DNA of 64,000 nucleotides from a virus: positions 24,951-88,950 of the IMG/VR virus record IMGVR_UViG_3300035034_000851. The stretch is one strand, 5' to 3'. Under the pieces are notes generated by a model that was not told the DNA's origin, ran no database searches, and was given only the letters and a program-made list of their open reading frames with translations. Shown in pieces: positions 4,559 through 46,922 of this stretch. How positions within the stretch are numbered: the stretch's first letter is position 1; each line of letters opens with the position of its first letter. The position numbers and the translations under genes are program-made.

Positions 4559-4802
4559 TAGCTAAATTTTTATATTTTTCATACATTTCATCAAAATTCT
4601 TTTTATCTTTATCTAAAGCTGATTTAATTAAATGTTTAGCTTGTTCTAAATCAAATCCAGGACCTTCTTTTAAATATAAAGATAAAACATAATTTAAATA
4701 ACTTCTAGAACTTGAATGTTCATGTATAGCTTCAAAAGCAGGTTTTAAAAATCTATTATGATATATTTTTTTAATTTCCTGTTGAGCCATGTCCTTTATC
4801 AT
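4533..4802 (-). CDS. Hypothetical protein
   Basis: ORF in the operon. Confidence 0.5.
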   Translation of the reverse strand: MIKDMAQQEIKKIYHNRFLKPAFEAIHEHSSSRSYLNYVLSLYLKEGPGFDLEQAKHLIKSALDKDKKNFDEMYEKYKNLAIEDELTGN

Positions 4803-5199: not shown

Positions 5200-5842
5200 T
5201 TATGTTATATTTTTAAACATTAAATAATTATTCCAAGATTCTTTTTTAAGCTTTTTAAATGTATTATTACTTATTTCTACATATGCTTTAAAAAAAGAAG
5301 GCTTTATTTCACTTCTTATTCTAGCATCTTCTTGTGATTCAGCTTTCACAAAACCACAAAGAGTACCGCTATCATTAGGACCTCCATCCATCATTTGTAA
5401 TATTTTATATATTTTCATTTAATTAATTAAAGTTTGTTCAATTTCTGCAAAATATTCATATTCATCATCTTTTTCTATATCTTCATTAAATTTAGCCATC
5501 TCTTGTTCAAGTAACTCTGCTTCTTTTAAAGTATATCTAGATGCTATATGATAATTATATTTACCTTCTTTATTTCTTTTTTTTAATTTTTTAAAAATTA
5601 CTATTGAATGTTCCATTATTTATTTGTGTGTTTTTTTTATTTTTAATTCTTACATCTTTATCTAATCGTTTTAAATAATTTCTAGCATTACCTTTATCAT
5701 AAAATCCATAAATAGATTTCCATATATTTCTATTAAGATTAATCATTTTTTCAATAATATATTGATTTTCTTTAAAAAAAGTGTTAGGATTATCATTATA
5801 AATTAATCTCCAATTATTTTTTTGACATATTAAATATTTCAT
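5200..5842 (-). CDS. Three small hypothetical proteins (5200-5418, 5419-5616, 5591-5842)
   Basis: Abutting ORFs with ATG starts. Confidence 0.5.
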
Positions 5843-6537
5843 TCATTTGTATGTTTTTCGTGGTGATCTATATAAATATTTATTTTAGAATTCATTATAA
5901 GTAATAATTCTTCAAAACTAATAGGTCTATATTCACCAAATAATCTGTTAATATTGTCAACTCCTACATCCATAGTTTTATGCATACTGTAAAAGTCATT
6001 AACTTGTTTTTCTATACCTTGAGATTTAGATTCAGTATCTAATGAAGCATGTGAATGCCCATATAGCATCCAACTACCATGATGAGATTTATTCCAAACT
6101 CTCATAGCATAGTGATTCAATACAATCTTCTGTGAACCTTTCCAAGGGTCTCTGTTAGGATTTGTACCTTCTAACGGATACTTTTCAGTAAACTCTAAAC
6201 CAGGGCTTATACCTTTGTTAAAAAGCTTTAAACTTTCTTCAAAGTTTTTAGTTATTAAATGATCATGATTACCCAAAATTAAGTGTATGTTATTACACTT
6301 AATTTTAGATATGTAGTATTTTAAATCATTAAAATCTCTACCAAAATATACATCACCTAAGATATATAATTCATCCTTTATTTTTACATATTCATTAATT
6401 TTATCAATAATATGCCTAGACATTTCTAGTTCATCAGCAAAATCTCTTAAAGATTCTGGATCAGCATGAGACCAATTAGTTTGGTGCTTAACTATGTTTC
6501 TTTGATTTAAGTGTAAATCACTTGTGAACCATTTCAT
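5839..6537 (-). CDS. Calcineurin-like metallophosphoesterase
   Basis: Intact SDLH, LGD, GNHD and GHSH motifs. Confidence 0.9.
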   Translation of the reverse strand: MKWFTSDLHLNQRNIVKHQTNWSHADPESLRDFADELEMSRHIIDKINEYVKIKDELYILGDVYFGRDFNDLKYYISKIKCNNIHLILGNHDHLITKNFEESLKLFNKGISPGLEFTEKYPLEGTNPNRDPWKGSQKIVLNHYAMRVWNKSHHGSWMLYGHSHASLDTESKSQGIEKQVNDFYSMHKTMDVGVDNINRLFGEYRPISFEELLLIMNSKINIYIDHHEKHTNE

Positions 6538-6808
6538 CTTCTTTAAATATTCTATCTATTTCTTTTTCCCAAATATGTATTTTATCACTATCAGCATACA
6601 CTCTACTGGTAAAAAATTTCTGTTTTATTTGAGCATAAGTAAAATCTGGATTTTCTTTAATCTCTTCTGTAAACTCTTTATCCAAATAATCTATTACTTT
6701 TTGATTGTTTAAATCTAATCCACGATGTCTGCCTTCTATATAATTTTTGTATTTTTCGTTAAATTCTATTCTATTCATAATATTTTTTATTGAAAATTTT
6801 TTCTCCAA
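6518..6808 (-). CDS. Conserved hypothetical protein
   Basis: QIKQKF..SRVY pattern seen in small phage proteins. Confidence 0.5.
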   Translation of the reverse strand: MEKKFSIKNIMNRIEFNEKYKNYIEGRHRGLDLNNQKVIDYLDKEFTEEIKENPDFTYAQIKQKFFTSRVYADSDKIHIWEKEIDRIFKEDEMVHK

Positions 6809-7230
6809 TTTTTATAATCAGGAACACTTAGTATTCCTAAGTTATGAACTAAATTATTATGTTGTTTTTTTAACATAATTTCTAAACGAATATTTTGTTT
6901 TAAACTAACTTCTAACAACACTAAATAATTAATCATGTCTCCTATTTTTTCATCAACAGTTTCTTCTTTTGGAAGTTTACCTGATTTTGTATCTTCTACA
7001 ATATCCATTATAGATACTAAATGTTTAGTAGCCATACCCCATAAAGCTTTTTCTCTTGTTTCTTTATTGGTAATAGAAGCTACATTAAAATTATGTAATC
7101 TATCTCCATTCCTAACATACTCTTTAGCTTTTACACCTAAAATATTTTTTGTTTGTACCAATCTTTCTTCTAATACATTAGTAAAAAATTGTTCAGATAC
7201 TTTGTGAATATTATTTATTTCTTTGTCCAT
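6787..7230 (-). CDS. Nucleotide-modification-associated / all-alpha NTP-PPase-like protein (DUF1599-like)
   Basis: KAKEY...DRLHNF...KH...DEKIGDMINY pattern. Confidence 0.6.
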   Translation of the reverse strand: MDKEINNIHKVSEQFFTNVLEERLVQTKNILGVKAKEYVRNGDRLHNFNVASITNKETREKALWGMATKHLVSIMDIVEDTKSGKLPKEETVDEKIGDMINYLVLLEVSLKQNIRLEIMLKKQHNNLVHNLGILSVPDYKNWRKNFQ

Positions 7231-7444
7231 ATTGTTTAATTTTAAATTTTAATTGATTTTTGTATATTTCTAAATCTTTTCCTTTTAAAGAATTGTAATT
7301 TAAAGTTAATTGTACTTGTAAATCAGCCATTTCTTTTATAAATTCTTTTTTTCTAGCTTTTTTATCTCTAGGTTTTGTTTTAAGTTGAATAGCTGCAGCT
7401 ATTAATTCTGCAGCTTCTTCAACTAATTTATTTCTAATCTTCAT
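7211..7444 (-). CDS. MazG-like pyrophosphohydrolase
   Basis: KLVEEAAEL...EMAD motif. Confidence 0.55.
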   Translation of the reverse strand: MKIRNKLVEEAAELIAAAIQLKTKPRDKKARKKEFIKEMADLQVQLTLNYNSLKGKDLEIYKNQLKFKIKQYGQRNK

Positions 7445-7625
7445 TGTCTCTAGTTATAACAGATTTGTGTCGAGGTAATGGCAAAGAACTTGGCTTAAAA
7501 ACTGTTGTCATTAATACACCAAATTTCTTTAAGTCTCTTTCTCTAATATCTTGCAATATTAAACCTATTAATTTTCCAGATTGATCATAAAAATCATCTA
7601 TTACTTTTTCTCTTTTATTACTCAT
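7434..7625 (-). CDS. Hypothetical protein
   Basis: ORF in the operon. Confidence 0.4.
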   Translation of the reverse strand: MSNKREKVIDDFYDQSGKLIGLILQDIRERDLKKFGVLMTTVFKPSSLPLPRHKSVITRDNED

Positions 7626-8150
7626 TTAAATTTTTAATATTTTTTCTATTTTTACAGAATTTTTATCTGTAGAATTTCCAACACTATAGAAATTTAATGT
7701 ACCATTTTCTTTATTTTTCCAATCTAATAAAGGATAATGAGATAAAACTACATTAGGTTTGTCATTAAATTCTATAAAATACATATCAAAAGTTTCATTA
7801 AATAAATCTTTAGCTTCTACAGAAAAATCAGTAACATGTTTAGTTAATCCAAGTCTTTTATCTTCAATAATAACTTTACTAAAAACACTACTTTTATATG
7901 TCCAATAATAGTTAAGTAAAATCATATTTTCTCTAATTACTATATCATTATTTCCAAATAAAAAATATATATTATTACAATTAATATCTTCTCTAACTTT
8001 TCCTATTTTTCTTAATTCCATTTCCCAATTACCCATAAAAAATAAAACATCATTTTCTTTATATAATTGATTTAATTCTTTAATAGTAAGTTCTATATTT
8101 TGTTTAAAATCAAAAAATCCTATGTTATAATTATTTTCATTAAACTTCAT
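7626..8150 (-). CDS. Degenerate metallophosphoesterase paralogue
   Basis: Aligns with 5839..6537 (DVLFFMGN, IYFLFGNND, VVLSHYPLLDW) but lacks the metal-binding residues. Confidence 0.6.
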   Translation of the reverse strand: MKFNENNYNIGFFDFKQNIELTIKELNQLYKENDVLFFMGNWEMELRKIGKVREDINCNNIYFLFGNNDIVIRENMILLNYYWTYKSSVFSKVIIEDKRLGLTKHVTDFSVEAKDLFNETFDMYFIEFNDKPNVVLSHYPLLDWKNKENGTLNFYSVGNSTDKNSVKIEKILKI

Positions 8151-9453
8151 CTTCTTTAAAATTTATAAAATATTTTTGTTTTTTTCTTATTGAAGATATT
8201 AAATTATAAGTGTTATTTAGATATTTATAAAATATAGGAGAATTATCACCATTTTCTATTCTTAATACTAACCCTTTAGTTAAAGATTTTTTATCTAAAT
8301 TTGACTTTTTTTCTGACAAATTTGACAATATTTTATCTAAAGTAAGAACTGTTCCATAATTAACTAATTTTATATCTTTATACACTTGTTCATTTTCAAA
8401 ATTAGTTTTAAAATAAGACAAACCTATTTCAGGGACATGACTTACATTTAATTTAGAACATCTTTTTTTAACTTGGCTCCATGATAAATCAATAACTTTT
8501 CCATTTTCTAAAGTATTTGTTATTCTATGTATAAATACATCATAAGTACCAGGTTTGTAACTATAAGTAAAAGGTATGTTATCTCCATAACAATTTTTTA
8601 AAGTAGATACAGCTCCTGAACCTAATATATGTTTAAACAAAGATACGTTAAAATTAGGTACAAAACTATTTTTTTCATTTTTAAAACCAACAGCAGTGTA
8701 ATATATAGTTTCTCCTTTGTTTAATTTGTATTTAAATAATTTAGATGCATCATAGGAAGTTCCAAATTTAGAACTAAACATTAAAAATTTATTACCATAA
8801 ACAAATTTGTAATCTCGTATTTTATTAGAAAATAAAGTTTTAAGTTTATTTATAAAATTATCTTTTTGATCAACTTTTAAAAAACCACATCTTCCTGAAT
8901 ATCCTTCAAGCATTTCTGTTATTACAACAGGATTACTATTTGCCAATCCTTTAAAATCTGAAAACATTGGCTTAATTATAATATCTCTTTTAAATTGTTT
9001 ATTTAATTTAGTTAAAGGATTATCAAGAGTTGTTTTAAAACTTTCATCTATTCCTATTGTAATTGTTATATAATTAAAAGAAAAACCTTTAGTATTATTA
9101 TTTAAACAACTAATATTTTTTAATAAAATGTAATTTTCTAAAACATTAAAAGGTAAAAACAAAGCTGAAGTTAATACACCTCGTATTAATTTAGGTTTTA
9201 CTACGCCAGATTTAGACATAATACCATGTTTCATAATATTTTTATTTAAAGTATTATCTTTAAATAAGTTTAGTTCTTTTAAAAGCAATGGGTCTAATAT
9301 AGTTCCTGTAGGAAATAATAACCCTCTAGTATATAATTGAATTTCATTTGAAACAACAACTACATCATTATTAATTCTAGATACTTTAATATATTTAGAA
9401 TCAACAATTTCTTTTAAATTAGTTATTTGTACTACTGTAAATTGTCCTACCAT
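8140..9453 (-). CDS. RNA ligase-like protein (DRB0094/Rnl2 type) with degenerate active site
   Basis: N-terminal OB-like region (LIRGVLTSALFLP), VITEMLEGYSG at motif I, HVPE, KGLVLR. Confidence 0.7.
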   Translation of the reverse strand: MVGQFTVVQITNLKEIVDSKYIKVSRINNDVVVVSNEIQLYTRGLLFPTGTILDPLLLKELNLFKDNTLNKNIMKHGIMSKSGVVKPKLIRGVLTSALFLPFNVLENYILLKNISCLNNNTKGFSFNYITITIGIDESFKTTLDNPLTKLNKQFKRDIIIKPMFSDFKGLANSNPVVITEMLEGYSGRCGFLKVDQKDNFINKLKTLFSNKIRDYKFVYGNKFLMFSSKFGTSYDASKLFKYKLNKGETIYYTAVGFKNEKNSFVPNFNVSLFKHILGSGAVSTLKNCYGDNIPFTYSYKPGTYDVFIHRITNTLENGKVIDLSWSQVKKRCSKLNVSHVPEIGLSYFKTNFENEQVYKDIKLVNYGTVLTLDKILSNLSEKKSNLDKKSLTKGLVLRIENGDNSPIFYKYLNNTYNLISSIRKKQKYFINFKEDEV

Positions 9454-31104: not shown

Positions 31105-31712
31105 TAAATAAGACTATTAACCAGATTATTTACTTCTAAAGCAAATTCACTGTTAGGAACCATTTCAGGATGACCTTGTATTGCTAATATTTTAGTTTTA
31201 TTATAAAATACTATTTCAGGATCTACAGGAGGTTTTTCCATACCTGCTGGAACTCCTTCTGCATAAGTACTACCTGTTATTTTACAATAAGCTTTAATTT
31301 CATAATCTTTTTCATTAAGATTAAAAGGATATTGCATTTGATGATGGGTACTAGTTACTTCATAATCTTTACCTTCTGGTGTAGAAACTTTGTGCATATA
31401 AGGATGATTCATATGTTGTACAAGTTTTCCACCTGACAACACACATCCCAATTGAGACCCTCTACATATACCCATAGTTAAAACATCAGGATTTTCTTGT
31501 TTTATTTTATTCCAAGAATTTATTTCACTAGCATCTCTTACAGGATTGTTTCCTGTATGTGGATGAGAATCTTCTTCATAAAGTTCAGGACTTACATCCT
31601 CTCCTCCTGTTAAAATTATAAGATCTGCTGATTTTGAATCATTAGTTAGTTCAAAATCTTTTAAAAATTCAGCATAATTTACTGCATTTCCTATTACATA
31701 TACTTTTTTCAT
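31104..31712 (-). CDS. Class I glutamine amidotransferase / peptidase C26
   Basis: GGEDV.P, GICRG, STHHQ and QGHPE motifs. Confidence 0.9.
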   Translation of the reverse strand: MKKVYVIGNAVNYAEFLKDFELTNDSKSADLIILTGGEDVSPELYEEDSHPHTGNNPVRDASEINSWNKIKQENPDVLTMGICRGSQLGCVLSGGKLVQHMNHPYMHKVSTPEGKDYEVTSTHHQMQYPFNLNEKDYEIKAYCKITGSTYAEGVPAGMEKPPVDPEIVFYNKTKILAIQGHPEMVPNSEFALEVNNLVNSLI

Positions 31713-32320
31713 ATTGCTTTTGGTTTAAATTTAGATTCTTTTCTTGCAAAATAACCTGTCACACTATCTTTATCTTTACTAAAAAATTCTTTAGAAGTTT
31801 GAATTACTATTCCTTTTGATTTATTATTGAGGCTATCTATACCATGTCCTGAAGAATAATAGATTTTATCTTTATTATTATTGAATGCTTCTGAAAATTT
31901 AATCATAGTTTCTATTCTACGATTATCATTTACAAATTCTTTAATAAAAGAAACAGAATAACAATCTCCATGGCTTTCCCATAAAAATCTAATTATTGTT
32001 AGAATTGCAAGAGTTTTTTTTTTAGAATTTAAAGTACCTTTAGGTAATAAAGAACTACCCATAATTAAATAATATTTCTTTTTTTCTTTTTTGTATTCTA
32101 AATCTTTAAAAATTAATTTCATTTTTCTTAAATATTCTAAGAATTCTTTTCTTGTAATATCAGAATGTTTGTGTAATTCAATTTTTAAATAGTTTGAGTT
32201 TAAATTTAAAAATGAAAAACAAGACTCTGCACCATATTTTGGTGCATTTTTATGAGTCTTGTAATATATTTTATTGTTAAAACTTCTATTAGAAAAAACT
32301 TTATTTTTAGTTATCTTCAT
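31709..32320 (-). CDS. Hypothetical protein
   Basis: ORF translationally coupled to the GATase. Confidence 0.55.
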   Translation of the reverse strand: MKITKNKVFSNRSFNNKIYYKTHKNAPKYGAESCFSFLNLNSNYLKIELHKHSDITRKEFLEYLRKMKLIFKDLEYKKEKKKYYLIMGSSLLPKGTLNSKKKTLAILTIIRFLWESHGDCYSVSFIKEFVNDNRRIETMIKFSEAFNNNKDKIYYSSGHGIDSLNNKSKGIVIQTSKEFFSKDKDSVTGYFARKESKFKPKAI

Positions 32321-32325
32321 TTTTA

Positions 32326-32862
32326 TTAGTCATATTGTTTCCAGTTGTGTTTGTTCATAAATCTTTTTTCTATTGGTTTCCAAGTATTTTCTGGTCTCCA
32401 ACTTCCTCTACCGTAAGCAAATCTAGCTTTATACCAACTGCCATATTTTACATATTTTAAATGTAAATAATATATGCTAGCGTGCAAACAGTTTTCTCTA
32501 GTTGTATCACTTAAATTAAGTTTTTTAAACATACTTTTACGAGTTGGTTCCCATATTTGCATATCACCATAACTAAATGCACCACAATCCCATACTTTTT
32601 GAGTATATTCTAAGTTATTAGGGTTAGGCCATCCAGATTCGTTTAATCCTATTTGATATACTACGGCATTACATACATTGTATTTTGCACAGTATTTGTC
32701 AATTAAATTAAATATGTTTTCTTTTTCTTCTATGTAAGTATCTTCTTCACATAGGATTTCTATAACTACAGGTTTTTCCACAACCTTTGTAGGTGTTATA
32801 CAAAATCCACTAATTGTTATTAGTGTTAGTATAGCTATTACTTTAAAATTAATTATATTCAT
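32326..32862 (-). CDS. SLT-like lytic transglycosylase with N-terminal signal/anchor
   Basis: Catalytic ES (LNESG), YGDMQI and AY motifs; hydrophobic N terminus. Confidence 0.65.
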   Translation of the reverse strand: MNIINFKVIAILTLITISGFCITPTKVVEKPVVIEILCEEDTYIEEKENIFNLIDKYCAKYNVCNAVVYQIGLNESGWPNPNNLEYTQKVWDCGAFSYGDMQIWEPTRKSMFKKLNLSDTTRENCLHASIYYLHLKYVKYGSWYKARFAYGRGSWRPENTWKPIEKRFMNKHNWKQYD

Positions 32863-32877: not shown

Positions 32878-32967
32878 CAGTCAATATAAGAATCGAACTT
32901 ATTACTCAGGATTTGGGTGAACTTAATCACTTAAAGTCTAGAACTCTACCAATGAGTTTAATTGACC
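32878..32967 (-). ncRNA. tRNA-like element with aberrant anticodon arm
   Basis: Acceptor GGTCAAT/ATTGACT, D-arm AACTC-ATTGGTA-GAGTT, T-arm ATAAG-TTCGATT-CTTAT. Confidence 0.7.
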
Positions 32968-33323: not shown

Positions 33324-35262
33324 TATCTAAATTTGTTATAAACGTGAATTAAACTTACTTGAACTTTTTTGTAAAAAATTTTAAATCCATTTTTAGTTAT
33401 TTTTTTAACTTTTATGAATTTATTAACCATTAAATAGGTTTTTTTTCTACCTCTAGTCATTTTTCTGTTTCCAGAATTAGGCATCTTAGCTTGACCCATC
33501 ATTGATTTTCTTGTGGCTCTGTTAGGAATTCCAGTTGAAAATACTTTTAAATTTCCATTTTCTTCAGAAGTTCTTGGACAATTTTCATCTAAAAAATAAT
33601 TTTGAAGATATGTACTTTTTATAGGAGGGTTAAACTTAGCTGCATTAGGATTTCCAGGCTTAGGAGCTTTTACTTTTCTAGCAATTTTTACTTTTTTAAA
33701 CTTAGATTTGTTTTCAAAATATAATGATCTTTTTTTCATACTATCTTTTGTTTAAATTATTTATTGATTGCATTTGATAATTATTCTCCCAATTTCTGAG
33801 TCTTCTTTGAAAAGAATATATTGAGATGTGACTCCCTCTATATTCTCTTTCAACTCTACCATGTTCTAAATCTCCACCAGTAAAACACTGTTGAACTAAA
33901 GCATTAGGTAGCTTAGGATAATTACTAAATCTTTTTTTAAGATCTAAAGACCATTTAATGTCTTCAATTGATATTACTCTCATATTGCTTCTACTGTTGC
34001 TTCTTTAGTTAAAATAACTTCTTCGCCTGTTATAGCATTAAAAAATAGAGTTCTATCTTCTTGGACTTCTTTTCTACACAAGATTCTTTTACCTTGCTGG
34101 CAATATTGATATTGACCAGGCTTCCAATAGAATCTTCTGTGATAGTTACCAAATTGTTTCCAAACTCTTTTAAGGTGATTTTCAAATATAATTAAATACA
34201 TGTTGTTTACCTACTATACTAGGATTTTAATTAACGTATAGAATAATTACTCTTACAGTTTAAGGTACTGTAATAGAGTCATACCAACCTTCCCACTCAC
34301 ATACCTTGTATGGAGTATAGGGATATTTTAATAAATGTTATTATGATAGTAATCATTCATAATAACAGATTGAACATTTTTTAAACATTCTACAGCTGCA
34401 AAAGCTTTTACCAGTTTAAGAGGTAATTTTTTAGGAAAATCAAATTTAATTGTAAATTCTCTTCCTTGCCTACTATGAAAAACAAAAGTAGATTCGCCAT
34501 CATTTGCTTTTTTAAAACCTAATTCCATTTTAGGTATAATACAAGATTTTACTTCAAAATGATTTTTTAAAAGTGTATCATAATGGCCTGCATAAAAGTT
34601 AACAATACCTTTATGACTTGTTATAACATTTTTTTTATTTTTTTCTATTTTGTTCATTAAACATTTTGTTTATATAGAAATTATAACCTAAATGATAATC
34701 TTCATCTATTATTAATTTCTTTTTACTTTTATTTCTTTTACAATCCTCAAATCCTAAATTAAATTGAGTAAGTTTACTACTTATTATTAATCCTTGATAT
34801 ATTAAGACAAAAATAATAATTATAAAAAACATTACTAAAAATTGTAAATTCTCGTAATTTTTAACAATAAAACTTATTGTTAATATAAATGTTAATATTG
34901 ATAACAATACTAAAAATATTTTTGATCTTAATTTAAAACGGTAATACATTTTCTACTTCTTTTAAACATTTTACTGCACACATTCCTTTAAAAACGTCCA
35001 TTCTTAGAGTATTTATCTCTTCCAATTGAATATTAATTTCTCTATTATTTGTACAAAAATAAAAACCTCTTATAGGTTTCTGGTTTTTAACTGATTTTTC
35101 TACATAATCATCATGATCAATTATAAAATCATCTATCCCATTATTTTCAAACAAATCATTTACTTCTTTTAAATATTCACCTTCTTTTCCTTCTATTTTA
35201 CTATACATAGCGAACACACATGGAATCGAACCATAATCTTTTTTAAAAAATGCTTTTACCAT
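33323..35262 (-). CDS. Six small hypothetical proteins (33323-33739 highly basic, 33741-33983, 33980-34201, 34328-34657, 34635-34949 two-TM, 34933-35262)
   Basis: Co-oriented, mostly abutting ORFs. Confidence 0.55.
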
Positions 35263-35367
35263 TAAGCTATGTGTGTTCTTGAGAATTAGGTTCTCACGGC
35301 TTTGATCCTACCTTAAAAAGGTGCTCCAAATCTTGAGTAATACTCAAAATTAATAATCTTTACTATT

Positions 35368-38340: not shown

Positions 38341-38554
38341 TTTGATTTTGTTTTAAGGTTTATTGAAAATTCCTACTACTACTCTATAAAGTAGCACAAT
38401 AGGTGCAAAAATTATATGAGATGCAGAGTGTTCATTCCAATCATGTTGGTCACTTACACGACAACCATACGCTATCCATATTATTCCTGTTAATGTAATT
38501 TCTAATATTGTCATAATTTTTAATTTTTTTAAAAGCAGGATTATACTCTCCTGC

Positions 38555-38688
38555 TAGGAGTTTTACTGTATTCTCAGTGATGTATTAGCACCATCTATAT
38601 TTCTATAAATGGTCACAAGATAATTAGTACATGACTCGGATTACTTAATTCATCCTCCATTCTGTCTATCTCTTGTTGTAAACTCCTA
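38555..38688 (-). ncRNA. Candidate end-paired structured RNA
   Basis: TAGGAGTTTTAC / GTAAACTCCTA pair the ends; internal hairpins; no ORF. Confidence 0.45.
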
Positions 38689-38840
38689 AGTGTATTCTAA
38701 CTACTTCTCAATGTTTTATTATAGTGTTAAATCTATTCAAACATACTATTGTTTCATCTAAGTAACGTCATTTAACAGATTAGTTACTATATCTCTATCC
38801 AACATATTACCATACAGTTGGTACACTTGATAAATTTGTA

Positions 38841-38910
38841 TGTAATAACACTAAGCTTAGACTGTAGTTTCTATTAAACCTGCTTACCTCCAGGTGCTTG
38901 TGTTATTACA
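38841..38910 (-). ncRNA. Candidate end-paired structured RNA
   Basis: Perfect 11-bp terminal stem TGTAATAACAC/GTGTTATTACA. Confidence 0.5.
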
Positions 38911-39005
38911 ATTTATATTCTATCTTTATTTAGTGACATTGACCACGGTTTTATCCATTTTCAGGACCGAGGTTAATCACAACGTCATAGGTTTAACGTA
39001 TTTCT

Positions 39006-39251
39006 TTACCAATTTGGTTCATCATACATACACAAATTATAACCTATTTGTGCAGTTATAAAAACTTCTTCTCTAAAAAACCAATGTTCTTTATTACCTG
39101 AACAATCATTTTCTAATTCTATCCAATACAAACCATTTTTAGTTCCATAATCAGATATTGTTCCACAATTACACTCTGGTGTTGGTGTAATATTTTCTTT
39201 GTTACATCCTAAAAATGTAAGAAATGTTAGTATTAATAGTAATTTTTTCAT
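39006..39251 (-). CDS. Small lipoprotein
   Basis: Signal peptide and lipobox MKKLLLILTFLTFLG-C; cysteine-rich mature part. Confidence 0.7.
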   Translation of the reverse strand: MKKLLLILTFLTFLGCNKENITPTPECNCGTISDYGTKNGLYWIELENDCSGNKEHWFFREEVFITAQIGYNLCMYDEPNW

Positions 39252-39270
39252 TTGTATTTAATTTTTTAAA

Positions 39271-39403
39271 AAACTATTCACTTCAGGATCTTCACCTGCC
39301 TTTTAAGATTCTACGTGATATTAATTTATCGTAGTTCTTTTAATATATACTTGTACTTCTCAGTTAAGAGTCAGTACGAGCTTTCTTACTTTGTGAATAG
39401 TTT
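39271..39403 (-). ncRNA. Candidate multi-arm RNA closed by an 11-bp stem
   Basis: AAACTATTCAC/GTGAATAGTTT enclosing three hairpins. Confidence 0.55.
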
Positions 39404-39407
39404 GTGT

Positions 39408-39512
39408 TATTAATAGTTTCGGGTCTTTCAAGGTTTCTGTTAATTCCGTAGAACCTAATGTGAGCTAAACCCTTAGCTTGTCCACATTTTTACAGCTTCA
39501 CTACTATTAATA
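39408..39512 (-). ncRNA. Candidate multi-arm RNA closed by a 10-bp stem
   Basis: TATTAATAGT/ACTATTAATA enclosing two hairpins; possible pseudoknot. Confidence 0.55.
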
Positions 39513-39560
39513 TAAAGATAACAACGTTCCAAATTTCCGCAAAGGATGTGTTTCAATTAT

Positions 39561-40221
39561 CTATTTCTTGTTTGTTGTAAAATGATTAGCTCCACCTGTG
39601 TTAGGAGTATAAATTGTTGTGTTTAACCATTTTTTAAGAGGTTTACTCATTTTACTTTTTAATACAATTATTCTATCAATTGATTTAATTGCTAAAATAA
39701 AAAATAAACCCCCCCAAGAACTTATACTTATCAAAAAAAATCCAAGTAAAATTTCTACTGTAAGTTTATCTTTTTCAATTAAAATTTCACTTATAGATGC
39801 ATATAAAAACATAATAAGATACCCTATAAAATATATAATAAGAAAATTCATATTCTTTTTAATTCAATAAAAGTTTTATAAAGTAAAAAAGAGAATACAA
39901 AAACTTCAAATAAAGCTATATAACTTTGTAATGTTCCCCACCATATTATTGTAGCATAACCTAATAATATTAAAATTAATGTTAAGCCTAATAATGTAAA
40001 TAATAATAATTTTTTCATATTGATTTCTGTTAATAAGTTAAATAAATAAAAGATAAAATAAGCAAAGCTATAGATACCCAAAATATCATACTACACGTAA
40101 ACCAATTATTGGTCATCACTAACTCATTTTCAAATAAATCATATGCAGTAAACATTACTACTATAATTAAAACGGCTGATAATCCTATTATTAAATAAGG
40201 ATCTAAATCTAAATAATTCAT
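39561..40221 (-). CDS. Three small membrane proteins
   Basis: Hydrophobic ORFs 39561-39851, 39848-40081 and 40030-40272 (internal ATG starts more likely). Confidence 0.55.
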
Positions 40222-40263
40222 AATATTTCTTTTTTCTTGTTTTTTGATTAATAAAAATAAAAT

Positions 40264-40362
40264 AAAACACACTGAAAGAACCCTCTACCTTGTAGATTAT
40301 ACTTTATTGAATTTATCATTATAGATAAAACGTGGTACTACTGCAGTAATACAGTGTGTTTT
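40264..40362 (-). ncRNA. Candidate multi-arm RNA closed by an 11-bp stem
   Basis: AAAACACACTG/CAGTGTGTTTT enclosing three hairpins. Confidence 0.55.
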
Positions 40363-40373
40363 TGGTTAAAATA

Positions 40374-40457
40374 AAAAATGCAGTGGACTTGAACCACTAT
40401 TAATAGGGATCTTTAAAAGAATATCCGTATTAACCTCGCCCATGAAAGAGACATTTT
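40374..40457 (-). ncRNA. tRNA-like element with an elongated stem replacing the anticodon arm
   Basis: T-arm AGTGG-TTCAAGT-CCACT, acceptor AAAATGT/GCATTTT. Confidence 0.6.
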
Positions 40458-40623
40458 ATTATTTCACTGTTTTCTATTCCTTCTACATCAGCACACTTTT
40501 CCCTTTTTTGGTTGTGTGCCATCTATCTTACGGATGGTTTTATGTAGATCTAGCTTCTATTTGTTTAAGGATATTCAGCTATTCCCTTCTTTTAACGTCT
40601 TTTGTCTGACTATGATTTTTGAT

Positions 40624-40917
40624 TTACATACACAAAATTTGTTCATATAAGTCAACATTAAAATCAGAATTCATTTCCTTTATTGTACCATTATCAAAAT
40701 CTTTAGCTTCTATTGGAGTATAATGTTCAGTTTTTTCAACTATTGCTTTTATGATTTGACCTTTAGGTAATTGACCTAAACTTTCATACAATTGTATAAT
40801 ACTGACAATACTATCTCCAGATTCATCGTGATTACTGATTAATGTTTTACCATCTGATGATGTAATTAATACTGCAAATGTTTTCATATTATTTTTTGTT
40901 TTTTCTTCGTTATTCAT
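40624..40917 (-). CDS. Hypothetical protein
   Basis: ORF directly downstream of tmRNA. Confidence 0.55.
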   Translation of the reverse strand: MNNEEKTKNNMKTFAVLITSSDGKTLISNHDESGDSIVSIIQLYESLGQLPKGQIIKAIVEKTEHYTPIEAKDFDNGTIKEMNSDFNVDLYEQILCM

Positions 40918-40951
40918 AATGTTAAATTGTTAAAATGTTAAATTATTATTG

Positions 40952-41321
40952 TGGAGGTGCTGGGAGTCGAACCCAGGTCCAAAATGTTAATCATAAATAA
41001 ATTGTTACAAGTTTTGTTTTTGTTTGTATTCTTTAAACTAGAATATTAGGCTGTACTACTTAGTACAAGCTCCACCTTTAGCTTTACAGTTTTATCTCTG
41101 TTTTTGGTAATTTAGTTACCAGCTTAAATCAGCCATACTATGCTGCTATTTCTAGCTTAACAGTAGGGAACATCTGTAATACTCCTTGAGCATCAACAGT
41201 TGTATTTGATATTTGTTTGTCGTTTATGACTTGAAACATATTATTTAATGCATTGATAGTTTCATTTTTGCATACTTGTTCGTCTAATCATAGCCATTCT
41301 GTCAAAAGCCAGAACACCCCC
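40952..41321 (-). ncRNA. ssrA: tmRNA
   Basis: 5' GGGGGTGTTCTGGCTTTTGAC and 3' GACCTGGGTTCGACTCCCAGCACCTCCA with G3-U70. The internal tag ORF 41221-41138 ends in ...LEIAA*. Confidence 0.93.
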
Positions 41322-41343
41322 ATATTGTTAAAGAGTTTAAAAA

Positions 41344-41420
41344 AATAAACAACTGAAGTGCAGTTCAAATGTTTTTACCCAATTATATTCAGTAATACAA
41401 ATTGGTTACAGTTGTTTATT
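41344..41420 (-). ncRNA. Candidate end-paired RNA next to tmRNA
   Basis: 12-bp terminal stem AATAAACAACTG/CAGTTGTTTATT plus an internal hairpin. Confidence 0.55.
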
Positions 41421-41524
41421 AGTATTGTTAAAGAGCTTCGTGTCCATCAGGATCATTACCTTCTGGATCAGGTACTAAATTACCAAATTCATCCCATTCA
41501 TTAGGGTCTATTTTTTTGTTTAAT

Positions 41525-42366
41525 TTATTCATTGTTTTTGTTATGTAAGTTTAAATCCCAATCAAAATCTTTTTCTTGAAAACTTTCTATATCTTCTTTT
41601 ACATTTTTAGCATAATCATCAACAGTAATGAATTCATCTTCACTAGTCTGTATAATCTGCCCATCTTCTTTAAGATCATTAAATTGCTTTATAATGTCTT
41701 TTAACTGTAAGTTTGTTAATCTTTTCATTTGATTGTTATTGTTAGATTGTTAGATTAATGAGATGCTATTTGTTCTGTCCAAATAACAGTAGCTTTAAAT
41801 ATTACTCCACAATCATTGCAAATTTTAGTTTTACCACTTGATGTAAAGTCTGATGTTGACAAATGTTGACATTTTACACTATTTTTATTTTTATCTACTA
41901 ATGATTTAGATTTGTTTGCTAATATTGCAAAATTATCTTCTTCAGTGTTAGTAATAGTATTGTCTTCTAGTAAATTTTTGTTTTGATTCATTTTAGTTTC
42001 TTGTTAGATTGTTAAAATTGTTAAAAAGCTATATAATAGTATGTGTGATAACTTAGAGAAATAGTGTTAGAATAGGCTTAGAGTGGTGGATGTTAACTCC
42101 TACCACTCTCTAAACTCTTACTATGACTCATTTTGTGGCATAAAACCATCATTCCACTTACCTTTGTACATATACTTAAAGCCTGTGGAATTAGTTACTA
42201 CCATTACGTCCCAACCTTGCACATCTTTAACTATTAATTCTATTGAAACTATATTTTCAAAGCTTGTACGAGGTTTAGAAAATATCATAGTGTTTAAACC
42301 TATATAATATTCTAATTGAATAGGAATTTGTGACTTTATGCCATCTATTTTGTTAATTATTTCCAT
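41525..42366 (-). CDS. Three small early proteins (41525-41728, 41755-41991, 42121-42366)
   Basis: ATG ORFs preceded by TAACAAT-rich leaders. Confidence 0.55.
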
Positions 42367-42457
42367 TTTATTTCTTTTAAATTGTTAATCTACCTGAGTT
42401 ATTATCAGTATTAATATTATAAACCAAATTATCATCATCATATCTTTATTTCTTTAG

Positions 42458-42498
42458 CTACTTATTAAGGAATCGAACCTTATCTAACCATTTAAGTA
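42458..42498 (-). ncRNA. Miniature tRNA-like RNA without an anticodon arm
   Basis: TACTTA-AATGGTTAGA-TAAGG-TTCGATT-CCTTA-A-TAAGTA-G. Confidence 0.55.
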
Positions 42499-42534
42499 TT
42501 TTTAATCTAATTCTTATTGCAATTTAAAGAGAAA

Positions 42535-42553
42535 AAGGGGCGTTAGCCCCCTT
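42535..42553 (-). terminator. Terminator after the first early gene
   Basis: GGGGC-gtta-GCCCC with a U-run on the - strand. Confidence 0.75.
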
Positions 42554-42557
42554 ATCT

Positions 42558-45145: not shown

Positions 45146-46922
45146 ATGAAGATAGAGATAAAAAAAGAAATTTTTGATTACATAGAAAGTGTTTCAAATT
45201 TAAATACAGTAGCGGATCACACTTATATTGAATACCCTTTTGGTTTTATTAAACACTATGGTGGTGCTATAAGTATGTATAAACTTGATGGTAGTCCTAT
45301 TGAAGGGGAGGAAGATGATATAAAAGTAATTTTAATATGATAGCTAGAAGAAGTAAAGAACTAAATTTAAAGCAATTTTACAAAGAATTTTTAAGACACA
45401 CCTCAAATAGTTTCCCAGCTCATAGAAGAATCACAGATATGGAGTTAGAGATCTTAACAGAGTTTTGGATACTAGAGGGTGACTTAATAAGAAAGGATAG
45501 ATTTTCTACTACAGCTAAAAGAGCAGTAAGAGAAGAATTTGGTTTTAAAAATTATTCTAACCTAGAAAATTATATTACTAAATTAATAGAAAAAGGTTAT
45601 TTAATAAAAGTTAATAAAAAGATTTCTATTAAACCTGCTATTAACTTAGCTAAAGATAAATTAAGAGATCATAAAAAAATTACACTAGTATATGAGTTCA
45701 ATATTGTATAATGGATCTAAAAGTATTAGCAGAAGAAAATAATGTATCAGAGTTCTTACTTAAAAATGTTTACAACCACTTCTTCAAATATATTAAAGAA
45801 GAAATGTCAAACAATGAAGGTAACACAATACATATACAAGAGCTTGGTAAAATAAAAGTTAATCCACGGATAATAAAACATATTATATCAGCACATATTA
45901 AAACAGCTAAAAGTTTAAAGAACAAAGGTAAAGATAATATTAAGATTAAAGAAAAAATTAAAATTCTTTGGAAAATTAGAAATAACACATGGAACACTAT
46001 AAAACATTAAACACATTAGTAGATGTCTGGAAAAAAGACAAAGAAGGGAATGAATATTGTGCTCATGAGAGTGTAACACTAAAAAAGAATTTTGATATAA
46101 GGTTTGTTTTCCCTGAAGAGGTACTAAAACAAGGGGGAAAACCTTATAAAACTAAATGCTTAATATATGATGACATTAGAAAAGAAAGTAGCTTAATAAA
46201 AATGAGTTTTAAAAAGCTAATAGAATTAAAAGAAAGTTTAACAATAGTAGTACCAATGGGATATAAAAGATAATGAAAAAAGTAAGAGTATTTGTAGAGG
46301 GCGTAACAGAAACGTTAGTCAGCACTCTACTAAATGGAATGACTGTAGAAACAGTGCAAGAGAGAGAACTAATAGATAGTTATTTAGTAGAATCAAATAA
46401 TTTATTAAGAGAATTTAATATAATTTATTCTACAAGGTTTAAGGAAGAATTAAGTGTTAATTTACCAGTATATCATAAGGGTTTACCTTTTGAAGAAGTA
46501 CTAGATGAGTTTATTCAGAAGTTAGATGAGTTTTACCCTTATGTAGAATCACTACCTGAATTAGCATCTATTGTAACTAATATGCTAAAATTAACTGCTT
46601 TAACTAAGTACAAATACGACAGATTATAATGAAAGGTATAACATTAACCAATATAAAAGATTTTGTTAGTGGTAATATTAGAATGTTTGGTGATAGATTT
46701 AATTTATTAGAAGAACATGTCAAAGAGCAGATTATATATAGAGACAAAATTTGTGCCAGTACTTGTGGTGTTGCAGGAAAGTGTGTTCAATGTGGATGCA
46801 GTTACCCTGGTAAGCTATATGTATATAAGAGCTGCAATGAAGGTAAGAGGTTTCCAGACATTATGGAGACAAAAGAATGGTTTAAGTTTAAAGAAGACAA
46901 TAACATAATAATTGAAGATTAA
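45146..46922 (+). CDS. Six small late-region proteins, including winged-helix-like (45337-45711), HU/IHF-like (45711-46010) and Zn-binding (46629-46922)
   Basis: TIHIQELGKIKV resembles HU; C..C....C..CGC cluster in the last; ORFs are coupled. Confidence 0.55.

What the first reader, a model, noticed from the sequence alone, without database searches (positions are those of the whole stretch)
38520..42500. Battery of end-paired structured RNAs around tmRNA in the early region: candidate undescribed phage RNA system
Seen: the gaps between small early genes are filled with discrete 70-135 nt units whose 5' and 3' ends pair in 10-12 bp stems around several hairpins. They lie at 38555-38688, 38841-38910, 39271-39403, 39408-39512, 40264-40362 and 41344-41420, with a smaller junction at 40482-40548. 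Units sit 4-22 nt from each other or from tmRNA and tRNA-like elements, as in a tRNA operon, and share architecture but not sequence. Inference: these are processed stable RNAs made early in infection, acting as decoys, sponges or antitoxins against host nucleases or defence proteins, or as ribosome-binding RNAs.
Basis: partly seen in the sequence, partly recalled or inferred. Interest (0 to 1): 0.85.

Follow-up and report, generated by a model that had tools for sequence, protein, structure and literature searches.

The report
Conserved folded RNAs in phage early region
The gene-free gaps around the ribosome-rescue RNA of this salt-lake relative of the crAss phages encode at least four conserved folded RNAs missing from the standard RNA catalogue, two of which many uncultured phages carry among their tRNA genes, and what they do is unknown.

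Summary
The window is a phi14:2-like crAss-type phage. Five of the seven listed units belong to four conserved RNA families, none matched in Rfam.

- 39271-39403: a ~95-nt RNA with 41 copies, all 11 end-stem pairs covarying. It often abuts tRNAs.
- 39408-39512: a pseudoknot-like RNA with 22 stand-alone copies, 13 abutting tRNAs. Its two motifs also sit inside phage tmRNAs.
- 40482-40548: the junction of a ~150-nt RNA shared with phi14:2.
- 38841-38910 and 38555-38688: respectively the variable tip and a domain of one ~470-nt modular RNA.
- 40264-40362 and 41344-41420: no homologue found, and folding like controls.

The two small RNA cores also occur grafted into a tRNA-shaped element, into the large RNA and into tmRNA. 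In phi14:2 the corresponding intergenic stretches give abundant, persistent early RNAs of unknown function.

Most likely these are stable RNAs released like tRNAs that act in trans on a host factor, perhaps the ribosome. That function is inferred. The 39408-39512 family was noted earlier by this scan on other DNA.

The parts
38531..38999 (-). Large modular RNA of about 470 nt.
Evidence: The conserved 20-mer occurs in 12 viral loci, and in all 12 the context matches that of the window. The downstream two-arm domain follows in most of them. On 14 copies the arms are 90% paired, with 8 of 25 pairs compensatory against 2.0 in shuffles. Tip and arm inserts vary from 0 to about 100 nt. The terminator-like hairpin was read from the sequence and is not listed on the minus strand by the scan.
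39270..39404 (-). End-paired RNA with a core of about 95 nt. It has an 11-bp end stem, two hairpins and conserved junctions. The window's copy carries an extra 39-nt hairpin.
   Evidence: Covariance model R1 scores it 92.5 bits. R1 found 41 matches (35 distinct) in 83 sources: 96.5% of cells paired against 71.9% in shuffles, 18 of 23 pairs compensatory, and all 11 end-stem pairs covarying. A U-G pair in 30 of 35 copies fixes the strand. The extra hairpin is seen.
39407..39513 (-). End-paired, probably pseudoknotted RNA. It carries two conserved motifs, a 13-nt one next to the 5' strand of the end stem and a 19-nt one next to the 3' strand.
   Evidence: The 18-mer occurs in 29 viral loci. 22 copies are stand-alone with 5-11 bp perfectly complementary ends, and 13 of the 22 abut a tRNA. 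The end stem is 82% paired against 65% in shuffles, with 9 of 10 pairs compensatory, on an unfitted MAFFT alignment. Folding energy alone is unremarkable (z -1.4, -1.1).
40455..40613 (-).
   Evidence: This was the only blastn match of the whole 4.3-kb region to GenBank phages: phi14:2, 72.5% identity. A 14-nt indel and a 12-residue protein match argue against coding. Seven copies show 8 of 23 pairs compensatory, including two in the junction's closing stem.
40375..40457 (-). tRNA-shaped element: acceptor stem, D-arm with GG, T-arm with a T-loop-like heptaloop, and a long stem in place of the anticodon arm. A T run follows.
   Evidence: RNAfold gives a cloverleaf-like fold in three copies (window, L022, L143). 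The acceptor stem differs in sequence yet still pairs in L143, and the L143 copy carries the 39270-39404 core in the long stem. nhmmer links the window and L022 copies at E 2e-7. The T-arm plus T run scores as terminator-like. There is no Rfam tRNA or ARAGORN call.
40264..40362 (-). End-paired stretch in front of three small membrane-protein ORFs. Its status is open.
   Evidence: 11-bp end stem; z -3.3 and -3.5, about one sd beyond controls. No homologue in 1.16 Mb of related loci. A T run follows the stem.
40949..41321 (-). tmRNA gene, one-piece form.
   Evidence: ARAGORN gives the tag VDAQGVLQMFPTVKLEIAA*. Rfam RF00023 scores 55.5 bits against a cut-off of 47.
41344..41420 (-). End-paired stretch 22 nt upstream of the tmRNA. 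Its status is open; it may be a long-stem terminator.
   Evidence: 12-bp end stem flanked by an A run and a T run. z -3.0 and -2.4, within the control range. No homologue found. Copies of TTTAACAAT lie on both sides.
42458..42498 (-). Mini tRNA-like element with an acceptor-like stem, a GG linker and a T-arm, but no anticodon arm.
Evidence: Read from the sequence. No Rfam or ARAGORN call. No homologue by nhmmer for the enclosing gap 42367-42557. A similar element in L022 was seen by eye only.
40926..42025 (-). Five copies of TTTAACAAT in intergenic positions, directly upstream of ORFs, of the tmRNA and of 41344-41420. They are candidate promoter or processing signals.
   Evidence: 12 matches in the window against 4.9 expected; 0 of 100 shuffles reach 12. 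Five of the 12 lie here on the minus strand. The motif also precedes the 40455-40613-type RNA in L015.

Best explanation
The non-coding gaps at 38.5-42.5 kb are genes for stable, folded, non-coding RNAs. These RNAs belong to conserved, uncatalogued phage families of the kind that phages keep in tRNA gene islands.

Four families are present:
- a large modular RNA of about 470 nt (38531-38999);
- a ~95-nt end-paired RNA (39270-39404);
- a ~105-nt end-paired, probably pseudoknotted RNA related to a segment of phage tmRNAs (39407-39513);
- a ~150-nt junction RNA (40455-40613), followed by a tRNA-shaped element.

Proposed working, with each step marked:
1. They are transcribed with the early genes and the tmRNA. 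This is inferred from phi14:2.
2. They are released from the precursor by the host's tRNA-processing enzymes, which cut at the flanking tRNAs, tmRNA and tRNA-shaped elements. This is inferred from the 0-9 nt spacing to tRNAs in other phages.
3. The long end stems shield the ends from exonucleases, so the RNAs accumulate. This is inferred.
4. The conserved cores of the two small RNAs are self-contained modules. Phages present them on different carriers: their own end stem, the arm of a tRNA-shaped RNA, an arm of the large RNA, or tmRNA. This is shown by sequence.
5. The modules act in trans on a conserved host component, most likely the translation apparatus. This is inference from the tmRNA link and from the lack of any conserved neighbouring protein gene.

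Two listed stretches, 40264-40362 and 41344-41420, are not shown to belong. They may be terminators or leaders.
For: RNA, not protein or chance:
- The ~95-nt family has 41 matches (35 distinct): 96.5% paired against 71.9% in shuffles, 18 of 23 pairs compensatory, and under 51% paired when partners are slid.
- The ~105-nt family's end stem is 82% paired against 65%, with 9 of 10 pairs compensatory, on an alignment not fitted to the structure.
- The junction RNA has 8 of 23 pairs compensatory in 7 copies.
- The arms of the large RNA are 90% paired with 8 of 25 pairs compensatory.
- Hairpin tips take inserts of 0 to about 100 nt.

Strand: a U-G pair in 30 of 35 copies would be an A-C mismatch on the other strand.

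tRNA-island setting:
- 8 of 41 copies of the ~95-nt RNA lie 0-9 nt from an ARAGORN tRNA.
- 13 of 22 stand-alone copies of the ~105-nt RNA do so, some inside arrays of 19-23 tRNAs.

Modules on carriers:
- The ~95-nt core sits inside the tRNA-shaped element of L143 and inside an arm of the large-RNA domain in L066.
- The ~105-nt core sits inside that arm in L135.
- Its two motifs flank a stem inside the phi14:2 tmRNA. The 18-mer also lies beside a tag-like reading frame in L130.

Phage-specific:
- One match in one genome of each of 185,579 prokaryote species, on a 7.5-kb MAG contig.
- No protein family recurs next to the ~95-nt RNA (at most 4 of 31 loci).

Expression by analogy: in phi14:2 two long intergenic regions between g004 and g006 are transcribed above most genes, from the earliest time point and without later decline. 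That interval holds the phi14:2 tmRNA with the module.
Against: - No RNA data exist for this phage. No RNA run holding the stretch was listed, so transcription, ends and stability are inferred.
- phi14:2 shares only the junction RNA and the tmRNA-embedded module. Fuzzy motif searches found neither the large RNA nor the ~95-nt RNA in the two stretches of phi14:2 searched, 1-9000 and 90000-100418. The reported phi14:2 RNAs are therefore analogues, not proven homologues, for most of the window's RNAs.
- Processing by RNase P or Z was not tested. Several end stems are followed by T runs, so simple termination could set the 3' ends instead.
- Only 8 of 41 copies of the ~95-nt RNA abut a called tRNA.
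- The copies of that family were mostly collected with a 16-nt pattern. The invariance of that hairpin is therefore partly by construction, and two pattern-independent copies differ there.
- The pair counts were made on an alignment fitted to the model.
- No partner is known, so the link to translation rests on module sharing with tmRNA alone.
- Folding of 39408-39512 and 41344-41420 is no better than controls.
Confidence: 0.6

Rival explanations
1. The units are decoys or sponges for host defence nucleases that cut tRNA, tmRNA or rRNA. tRNA-shaped and tmRNA-like folds would draw the nuclease away from the real targets, or titrate a sensor. This overlaps the best explanation in everything but the target.
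For: - Three tRNA-shaped elements lack a decoding arm (earlier notes).
- The modules live in tRNA arrays.
- They are phage-only.
- Expression would be early by analogy.
- From my own knowledge, not a call: phage tRNA arrays are held to counter anticodon nucleases.
Against: - No module resembles an anticodon stem-loop. The conserved hexaloop of the ~95-nt RNA fits no canonical 7-nt anticodon loop when read from the sequence.
- No defence or anti-defence protein is linked.
- Very high sequence conservation across otherwise unrelated phages fits a conserved housekeeping target better than fast-evolving defence proteins.
Confidence: 0.15
2. They are parts of large RNA-only assemblies like ROOL and GOLLD. 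The ~470-nt RNA, perhaps with the smaller ones, would multimerise into a particle, and the grafted modules would be structural building blocks.
For: - ROOL and GOLLD are phage RNAs 'often near tRNA islands', abundant, of unknown function and without known protein partners. tRNAs sometimes lie inside GOLLD (passages read).
- The window's large RNA is modular, with variable peripheral arms and no conserved neighbouring protein.
- An earlier scan note, e1-6100381, proposes self-pairing tip loops for a tRNA-array and tmRNA RNA. It may be the same family, which I did not check.
Against: - No Rfam ROOL or GOLLD match, even at E up to 10.
- The RNA is shorter than the 'exceeding 800 nucleotides' that the passage gives for many GOLLD members. 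Its being shorter than ROOL too is recalled, not from a call.
- Multimerisation cannot be tested here. I did not find a self-complementary loop conserved independently of my search pattern.
Confidence: 0.12
3. They are cis-acting elements of the early transcripts and have no trans function. On this view they are terminators, processing punctuation between small ORFs, or 5' leaders controlling the adjacent small genes.
For: - T runs follow several end stems.
- The tRNA-shaped element's T-arm plus T run scores as terminator-like.
- 40264-40362 sits in front of a small-ORF operon, and 41344-41420 sits between an ORF and the tmRNA. These two have no homologues.
- The mini tRNA-like element lies between two ORFs.
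Against: - The two small families occur between tRNA genes with no ORF nearby. They also occur as inserts inside other RNAs. The neighbouring gene differs from phage to phage.
- Conserved junctions and loops far exceed what a terminator needs.
- This explanation remains the likeliest for 40264-40362 and 41344-41420 alone.
Confidence: 0.1
4. The conserved blocks act as DNA, for example as promoters for the virion RNA polymerase, a replication origin or a packaging site. On this view the apparent RNA folds are incidental.
For: - Some blocks are conserved in sequence with little covariation: the 3' block of the junction RNA and the 33-nt block of the large RNA.
- The phi14:2 virion polymerase needed denatured DNA in vitro, and no early promoter motif was found, so structured DNA signals are conceivable.
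- TTTAACAAT is enriched here.
Against: - There are compensatory changes in every helix tested.
- The U-G pair is strand-specific.
- The elements occur inside tRNA arrays and tmRNA genes of unrelated phages.
- The corresponding regions of phi14:2 give abundant RNA.
Confidence: 0.03

Closest known systems
Long non-coding RNAs of Cellulophaga phage phi14:2 (Drobysheva et al., bioRxiv 10.1101/2020.03.07.982082; passages read)
   Same: - Same phage group (Crassvirales, Akihdevirus-like).
- Same genome neighbourhood, next to the homologue of the window's 210-aa gene.
- Long intergenic stretches with spurious small ORFs that were later removed from RefSeq.
- phi14:2 shares the ~150-nt junction RNA, a tmRNA and the module of 39407-39513 inside that tmRNA.
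   Different: - The paper reports only abundance and timing and leaves the function open. It gives no structures or families in the passages I read.
- The large RNA and the ~95-nt RNA of the window were not found in the two phi14:2 stretches searched.
Phage T4 RNAC and RNAD (species 1 and 2 small stable RNAs of the tRNA region; Uzan and Miller 2010, PMC3014915, passage read)
   Same: They are small non-tRNA RNAs transcribed from a phage tRNA region, with biological roles unknown. This is the same kind of setting as the homologues of 39270-39404 and 39407-39513 in other phages.
   Different: - No sequence similarity: representative copies of both families find nothing in 50,697 GenBank phage records at E up to 0.01. 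That T4 is among those records is assumed, not checked.
- In this window the RNAs sit by a tmRNA and tRNA-shaped elements, not in a true tRNA array.
- The structure of the T4 RNAs was not compared.
ROOL and GOLLD large ornate phage RNAs (Kretsch et al., bioRxiv 10.1101/2024.12.08.627333; passages read)
   Same: They are encoded by phages, often near tRNA islands. They are abundant, have no known protein partner and no known function, and have variable peripheral parts. tRNAs are sometimes embedded in GOLLD.
   Different: - No match to their Rfam models.
- The window's largest RNA is about 470 nt.
- Oligomeric cages are neither shown nor testable here.
Pseudoknot region and helix-2 junction of tmRNA (Rfam RF00023)
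   Same: The two conserved motifs of 39407-39513 occur in the phi14:2 tmRNA on either side of a stem (4284-4302 and 4367-4379). The second motif aligns with the conserved block of the Rfam consensus just before the 3' strand of helix 2. The 13-nt motif also occurs in the tmRNA of L056.
   Different: - The stand-alone RNA has no tRNA-like domain and no tag reading frame.
- Its ends lie in the stem that is a capped hairpin in tmRNA, a circular-permutation-like relation.
- The window's own tmRNA lacks the 19-nt motif.
Bacterial and phage Y RNAs (YrlA) with Ro60/Rsr
   Same: They are end-paired RNAs with a tRNA-like module. They are found in phage tRNA arrays, and earlier notes of this scan found them grafted into tRNA-shaped genes.
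   Different: - No Y RNA family among the matches of an Rfam scan at E up to 10. That Y RNAs stand in Rfam as RF02553 is taken from earlier notes.
- No TROVE (Ro60) gene in the 88,950-bp record, which is 88% complete.
tRNA-like structures used as processing signals or carriers (MALAT1-mascRNA; engineered tRNA scaffolds for aptamers). Recalled from memory, no call.
   Same: A tRNA-shaped element follows a structured RNA directly in the window and L022. In L143 it carries a foreign RNA module where the anticodon arm should be.
   Different: Those examples are eukaryotic or man-made. Cleavage by RNase P is not shown here.

Membership tests
tmRNA (RF00023), for 40949-41321 | Match to the covariance model above its gathering score; tRNA-like ends; tag reading frame ending in a stop. 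| tested here: met
   55.5 bits against a cut-off of 47. ARAGORN gives the tag VDAQGVLQMFPTVKLEIAA*.
Any Rfam 15 family, for the seven listed units | A cmscan match at or near a family's gathering score. | tested here: not met
   At E up to 10 over 30-46 kb, the only matches overlapping a listed unit are two chance-level ones at 40231-40295: 22.4 and 17 bits against cut-offs of 40 and 50. Homologue-bearing loci gave only tRNA, tmRNA, a group I intron and weak chance-level matches to tRNA-Sec and plastid cis-regulatory families.
tRNA (RF00005 / ARAGORN), for 40375-40457 and 42458-42498 | Cloverleaf with an anticodon arm that has a 7-nt loop; detection by tRNA finders. | tested here: not met
   There is no ARAGORN or Rfam call. 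An acceptor stem, a D-arm with GG and a T-arm are present, but the anticodon arm is replaced by a long stem or is absent. They are tRNA-shaped, not tRNAs.
ROOL / GOLLD | Match to the Rfam models. | tested here: not met
   No match at E up to 10.
ROOL / GOLLD | Phage-encoded, near tRNA islands, no conserved protein partner. | tested here: met
   The feature is described in the passages.
ROOL / GOLLD | Homo-oligomeric cage. | not testable with these tools
   This needs biochemistry or cryo-EM.
T4 RNAC/RNAD-type small stable RNAs of phage tRNA regions | Non-tRNA RNA gene lying among phage tRNA genes. | tested here: met
   This holds for the families, not for the window's own copies. 13 of 22 copies and 8 of 41 copies lie within 10 nt of a tRNA.
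T4 RNAC/RNAD-type small stable RNAs of phage tRNA regions | Sequence relationship to the T4 RNAs. | tested here: not met
   blastn of a representative of each family against 50,697 phage records found no match at E up to 0.01. That T4 is among those records is assumed, not checked.
T4 RNAC/RNAD-type small stable RNAs of phage tRNA regions | Stable, discrete RNA species in infected cells. | not testable with these tools
   No RNA holder was listed for the stretch. There is only the analogy to phi14:2.
Y RNA / YrlA with Ro60 | Ro-binding stem module (Rfam model) and a TROVE-domain protein gene in the genome. | tested here: not met
   No Y RNA family among the matches. No PF05731 match in the record, and the control genomes do respond.
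Intrinsic terminator, for 40264-40362 and 41344-41420 | Short G+C-rich hairpin followed directly by a T run. | tested here: inconclusive
   The consensus scan does not list them: its loop limit is 3-8 nt and their loops are about 50-75 nt. Both have an A run before the end stem and a T run after it.

The most novel reading that the evidence does not exclude
Phages of aquatic Bacteroidota-type hosts own a toolkit of small, autonomous RNA modules, the cores of 39270-39404 and 39407-39513. They mount these modules on whatever carrier the host will process and stabilise: a bare end stem between tRNAs, the anticodon position of a tRNA-shaped RNA, an arm of a large ornate RNA, or tmRNA. This would be a natural counterpart of the engineered tRNA scaffold for aptamers. 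The carried modules would dock onto the host ribosome, or another conserved part of the translation apparatus, to redirect it early in infection.
Probability: 0.3. Interest if true: 0.9.

Novelty: new variant of a known kind. Interest (0 to 1): 0.74.

Why it matters
Phage tRNA islands are known to hold enigmatic RNAs whose functions remain unknown: T4 RNAC and RNAD, ROOL and GOLLD. This window adds four further families with clear comparative support.

Two points make the problem more tractable.
- The same RNA cores are reused on different carriers (end stem, tRNA-shaped RNA, large RNA, tmRNA). That marks them as self-contained functional modules and points to the translation machinery as a place to look.
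- A cultured phage-host pair, phi14:2 and Cellulophaga baltica, carries the junction RNA and the tmRNA-embedded module. It already has RNA-seq data showing abundant, persistent early non-coding RNA. Ends, partners and knock-out phenotypes can therefore be tested directly.

The work also gives an identity to part of the unexplained phi14:2 RNA. A tmRNA gene, not annotated in the records I saw, lies in the interval that the authors described as long non-coding RNA.

Tried and rejected
Coding explanation for 40456-40613. The plus-strand ORF (55 aa; annotated as gp131 in phi14:2 and later removed from RefSeq) aligns over only 12 residues. The DNA alignment has a 14-nt indel. Rejected.

Known RNA families. 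Rfam scans at gathering threshold and at E up to 10, 1 or 0.1 on the window and 13 loci gave only tmRNA, tRNA, one group I intron and chance-level hits. I compared hammerhead, k-turn, T-loop and anticodon-loop readings of the conserved hairpins by eye and dropped them, because the defining nucleotides do not fit. A 9-nt identity of the 39407-39513 motif to 23S rRNA, recalled from memory, was dropped as expected by chance.

Y RNA idea. No Y RNA family matched and there is no TROVE gene.

Partner protein. Clustering of 1,066 ORFs from 66 loci plus the window found no family in more than 4 of 31 loci carrying the ~95-nt RNA. Two families recur next to the ~105-nt RNA, in 7 and 6 of 18 loci. By their motifs I read them as QueC-like and thioredoxin-like, and they look like shared ancestry of related phages. 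Pfam and PHROGs on 30 window ORFs gave no RNA-binding or RNA-processing hit.

Homologues of 40264-40362, 41344-41420 and the gaps 41992-42120 and 42367-42557. blastn and nhmmer against up to 1.16 Mb of related loci found nothing.

Sequencing runs. No RNA holder was listed. Contigs of four DNA runs laid on the region gave near-identical fragments and one diverged copy of the junction RNA. Its changes fit the stem seen in other copies, but at depth under 3. I did not use it as evidence.

Host tmRNA comparison.

Closest relatives by protein. The first three loci had no tRNA, tmRNA or Rfam match.

Literature. Searches found no description of these families. The supplementary tables of the phi14:2 paper were also closed.

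Full report
WHAT THE WINDOW IS. The window is bases 24,951-88,950 of an 88,950-bp IMG/VR virus record estimated 88% complete. DNA runs that hold it are lake-water and salt-lake metagenomes. Its only nucleotide-level relative among 50,697 GenBank phage records is Cellulophaga phage phi14:2 (Crassvirales, Akihdevirus). Genes between 36 and 43 kb run on the minus strand. They are small, and they are separated by gaps of 100-490 nt. A one-piece tmRNA lies at 40949-41321.

CHECK OF THE OBSERVATION. All seven stretches fold with their ends paired. These fold with mean z -2.1, sd 1.3. Against that, 38555-38688 (-5.6), 39271-39403 (-5.2) and 38841-38910 (-4.1) stand out. 40264-40362 (-3.5) and 40482-40548 (-3.2) are marginal. 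41344-41420 (-2.4) and 39408-39512 (-1.1) are ordinary. Such end pairs are common in this A+T-rich DNA: 33 in the window against 25.2 in shuffles, with five of them in the region. Folding alone therefore supports less than half of the list. An Rfam scan at E up to 10 gave nothing but the tmRNA and two tRNA-type hits elsewhere.

THE JUNCTION RNA (40455-40613). The single blastn match of the 4.3-kb region to phi14:2 falls in a gap, not in a gene. The alignment has invariant blocks around a hairpin with a 14-nt indel. The plus-strand ORFs that overlap it share only 12 residues, and RefSeq has since removed the phi14:2 ORF. Pattern scans found further copies in IMG/VR and metagenome contigs. Two of 7 and two of 6 pattern hits were real, and the rest were chance matches in coding sequence. 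blastn added L027 and L056. Seven copies give two 5' hairpins and a three-way junction, with 8 of 23 pairs compensatory. A single-stranded 3' block of 29 nt is almost invariant.

In the window and L022 the RNA is followed after about 20 nt by a tRNA-shaped element (40375-40457). This has an acceptor stem, a D-arm with GG, a T-arm and a long stem where the anticodon arm should be.

THE ~95-NT RNA (39270-39404). blastn against loci collected through the neighbouring 210-aa protein family showed copies in L027 and L043. These copies have compensatory changes, and the window's copy has a 39-nt extra hairpin.

A 16-nt pattern from its first hairpin found 42 IMG/VR loci. A covariance model then matched 41 places in 83 sources (997,642 bases). 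These comprise 36 of the 40 non-duplicate pattern loci plus the window, L027, L043, L061 and L104.
- On the 35 distinct copies, 96.5% of cells pair against 71.9% in shuffles.
- 18 of 23 pairs have compensatory changes, and all 11 pairs of the end stem covary.
- Sliding the partners drops pairing below 51%.
- The alignment was fitted to the model, which favours it, but the margin is large.
- Perfectly complementary ends of 6-12 nt with unrelated sequences were already visible before any model.
- A U-G pair in 30 of 35 copies fixes the strand.

Because the pattern fixed the first hairpin, its invariance is partly by construction. Two copies found without the pattern differ there: L061 has a 46-nt insert and L143 has one changed loop base.

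Eight of the 41 copies lie 0-9 nt from an ARAGORN tRNA, one of them inside a 19-tRNA array. Several more have tRNA-like flanks by eye. The family is essentially phage-only. A stricter pattern found one match in one genome for each of 185,579 prokaryote species, on a 7.5-kb MAG contig. A representative copy found nothing in GenBank phages.

THE ~105-NT RNA (39407-39513). Its folding energy is unremarkable. However, a 19-nt block is identical to a block inside the phi14:2 tmRNA. The 18-mer occurs in 29 IMG/VR loci.
- In 22 of the 28 examined (phi14:2 left out) it closes a stand-alone unit. That unit has a second conserved 13-nt motif at the 5' side and 5-11 perfectly complementary end bases.
- 13 of the 22 abut a tRNA at 0-8 nt, some in arrays of 11-23 tRNAs.
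- On a plain MAFFT alignment of the 19 distinct copies, the end stem is 82% paired against 65% in shuffles, with 9 of 10 pairs compensatory. A second register scores nearly as well in copies whose stem is an AG/CU repeat.
- An internal helix between the A-rich loop and the block just before the 19-nt motif would make a pseudoknot. I read this from the sequences only.

In the other six loci, and in phi14:2, the 18-mer lies in a different context. In phi14:2 it is inside the tmRNA, and the 13-nt motif follows after a stem. That 13-nt motif aligns with the conserved block before the 3' strand of helix 2 of the Rfam tmRNA consensus. In L130 the 18-mer follows a tag-like reading frame, next to a group I intron. 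The stand-alone RNA and the tmRNA segment are thus related as if by circular permutation: the stem is open-ended in one and capped in the other.

An earlier agent of this scan reached the same description for a look-alike in another genome (e1-5826903). That is not independent evidence. It does mean that the scan has seen this family before on other DNA.

THE LARGE RNA (38531-38999). A 20-mer from the 3' block found 12 IMG/VR loci. In all 12 the context matches that of the window. The order of parts is:
1. a hairpin with covarying stem;
2. a stem with a variable middle;
4. a 33-nt invariant block with a hairpin;
5. a spacer;

On 14 copies of that domain, 90% of cells pair against 33-53% when slid. 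Eight of 25 pairs have compensatory changes against 2.0 in shuffles. The arms carry inserts, so the domain ranges from 68 to 234 nt. Its 5' strand belongs to an invariant 17-nt block. The first six bases of that block can instead pair with a conserved hexamer of the upstream block, which is present within 140 nt in 10 of 14 copies.

The whole gap is therefore best read as one modular RNA of about 470 nt.

MODULES ON DIFFERENT CARRIERS. The core of the ~95-nt RNA replaces the tip of an arm of the two-arm domain in L066. It also fills the long stem of the tRNA-shaped element in L143, whose acceptor stem differs in sequence from the window's yet still pairs. The core of the ~105-nt RNA fills the same arm of the two-arm domain in L135, and it sits in tmRNA in phi14:2. 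I take this as the most informative result. The two cores are self-contained modules that keep their sequence whatever carries them.

THE TWO UNSUPPORTED UNITS. 40264-40362 and 41344-41420 found no homologue and fold like controls. Both have an A run before the end stem and a T run after it. Both stand where a terminator or leader would be expected: between an ORF and the tmRNA, and before a small-ORF operon. The motif TTTAACAAT is enriched locally, with five of the window's 12 copies in 1.1 kb and all in gaps. It may mark promoters or processing sites.

EXPRESSION. No RNA run was listed for the stretch. For phi14:2 the authors report that two long intergenic regions, the g004-g005 and g005-g006 junctions, are transcribed above most protein genes. 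[quoted passage not shown] In the record as held, g004 is 2194-2904 and g006 is 4602-4901, and g005 is no longer listed. Whatever g005 was, both junctions lie within 2905-4601. That interval holds the phi14:2 tmRNA, 4031-4502 (ARAGORN; Rfam 46 bits against a cut-off of 47). The window's 210-aa gene is the g004 homologue. So the same neighbourhood in a cultured relative does yield abundant stable RNA, part of which is a tmRNA that is not annotated in the records I saw.

HOW IT MOST LIKELY WORKS.
- Shown: conserved folds, the strand, end stems, the position among tRNAs, module reuse, phage-only distribution, and no conserved neighbouring protein.
- Inferred: early co-transcription; release by RNase P and 3' processing at the flanking tRNA, tmRNA and tRNA-shaped structures; protection by the end stems; and action in trans on a conserved host component.

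The tmRNA link makes the ribosome or the trans-translation machinery my first guess. GOLLD is reported to bind ribosomes in pull-downs.

The rivals are as follows.
- A decoy for tRNA-targeting defences remains open.
- ROOL/GOLLD-like self-assembly remains open.
- Purely cis-acting punctuation remains open only for the two unsupported units.
- DNA-level signals are disfavoured by the covariation and by the strand-specific wobble pair.

COMPARISON AND NOVELTY. In kind these RNAs join T4 RNAC and RNAD and ROOL and GOLLD, which are non-tRNA RNAs of phage tRNA islands with unknown roles. They are not members of any of those families. They do not fit Y RNAs either. I found no description of them in the searches. 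I rate the finding a new variant of a known kind. The reuse of modules on tRNA-shaped and tmRNA carriers is the part that could prove new in principle.

Noticed in passing
L016:4031-4502 (phi14:2 genome 4031-4502): phi14:2 has a tmRNA gene (ARAGORN tag GSSVQKLAMVA*; Rfam 46 bits, one bit under the cut-off). It is not annotated in KC821624 or NC_021806 as held. It lies in the interval whose abundant RNA the phi14:2 paper calls long non-coding RNA of unknown function.
   Followed up: partly
window 40926-42025, minus strand: TTTAACAAT occurs 12 times in the window against 4.9 expected. Five copies lie in this 1.1 kb, all in gaps just upstream of ORFs, the tmRNA and 41344-41420. The motif also precedes the junction RNA in L015. 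It may be an early promoter or a processing signal.
   Followed up: partly
window 32207-32325: A stretch bounded by a 10-bp end pair folds far better than shuffles on both strands (z -6.5 and -6.8). That is stronger than any of the listed units. It lies at the junction of ORFs 31709-32320 and 32326-32862.
   Followed up: no
window 46326-46391: Another short end-paired stretch with z -4.95 on the minus strand, outside the finding.
   Followed up: no
L130:610-1010: A phage tmRNA-like gene carrying the 18-mer module. A group I intron follows it directly (Rfam RF00028, 82.8 bits, 785-1010). ARAGORN does not call a tmRNA there.
   Followed up: no
L027:3460-3817: The closest IMG/VR relative that carries several of these RNAs has a permuted tmRNA (Rfam RF04321, 60.3 bits; ARAGORN tmRNA*). 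It abuts the homologue of the window's 210-aa gene.
   Followed up: no
L079, L093, L100 (around the 16-nt pattern): A different RNA shares only the first hairpin of the ~95-nt family. It also carries short blocks resembling the first hairpin loop of the junction RNA and a block of the large RNA. This suggests a wider pool of shuffled modules.
   Followed up: no
window 32878-32967 and 35211-35276: Two tRNA-type genes. ARAGORN calls the first a 91-nt tRNA-Leu(taa) and misses the second, which Rfam scores at 42.4 bits.
   Followed up: no
L020:1-1190: A 1,647-bp metagenome contig is non-coding for its first ~1.2 kb. It holds the junction RNA, a hairpin like the first hairpin of the large RNA, and a tRNA-like T-arm. 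It looks like another dense RNA battery.
   Followed up: no
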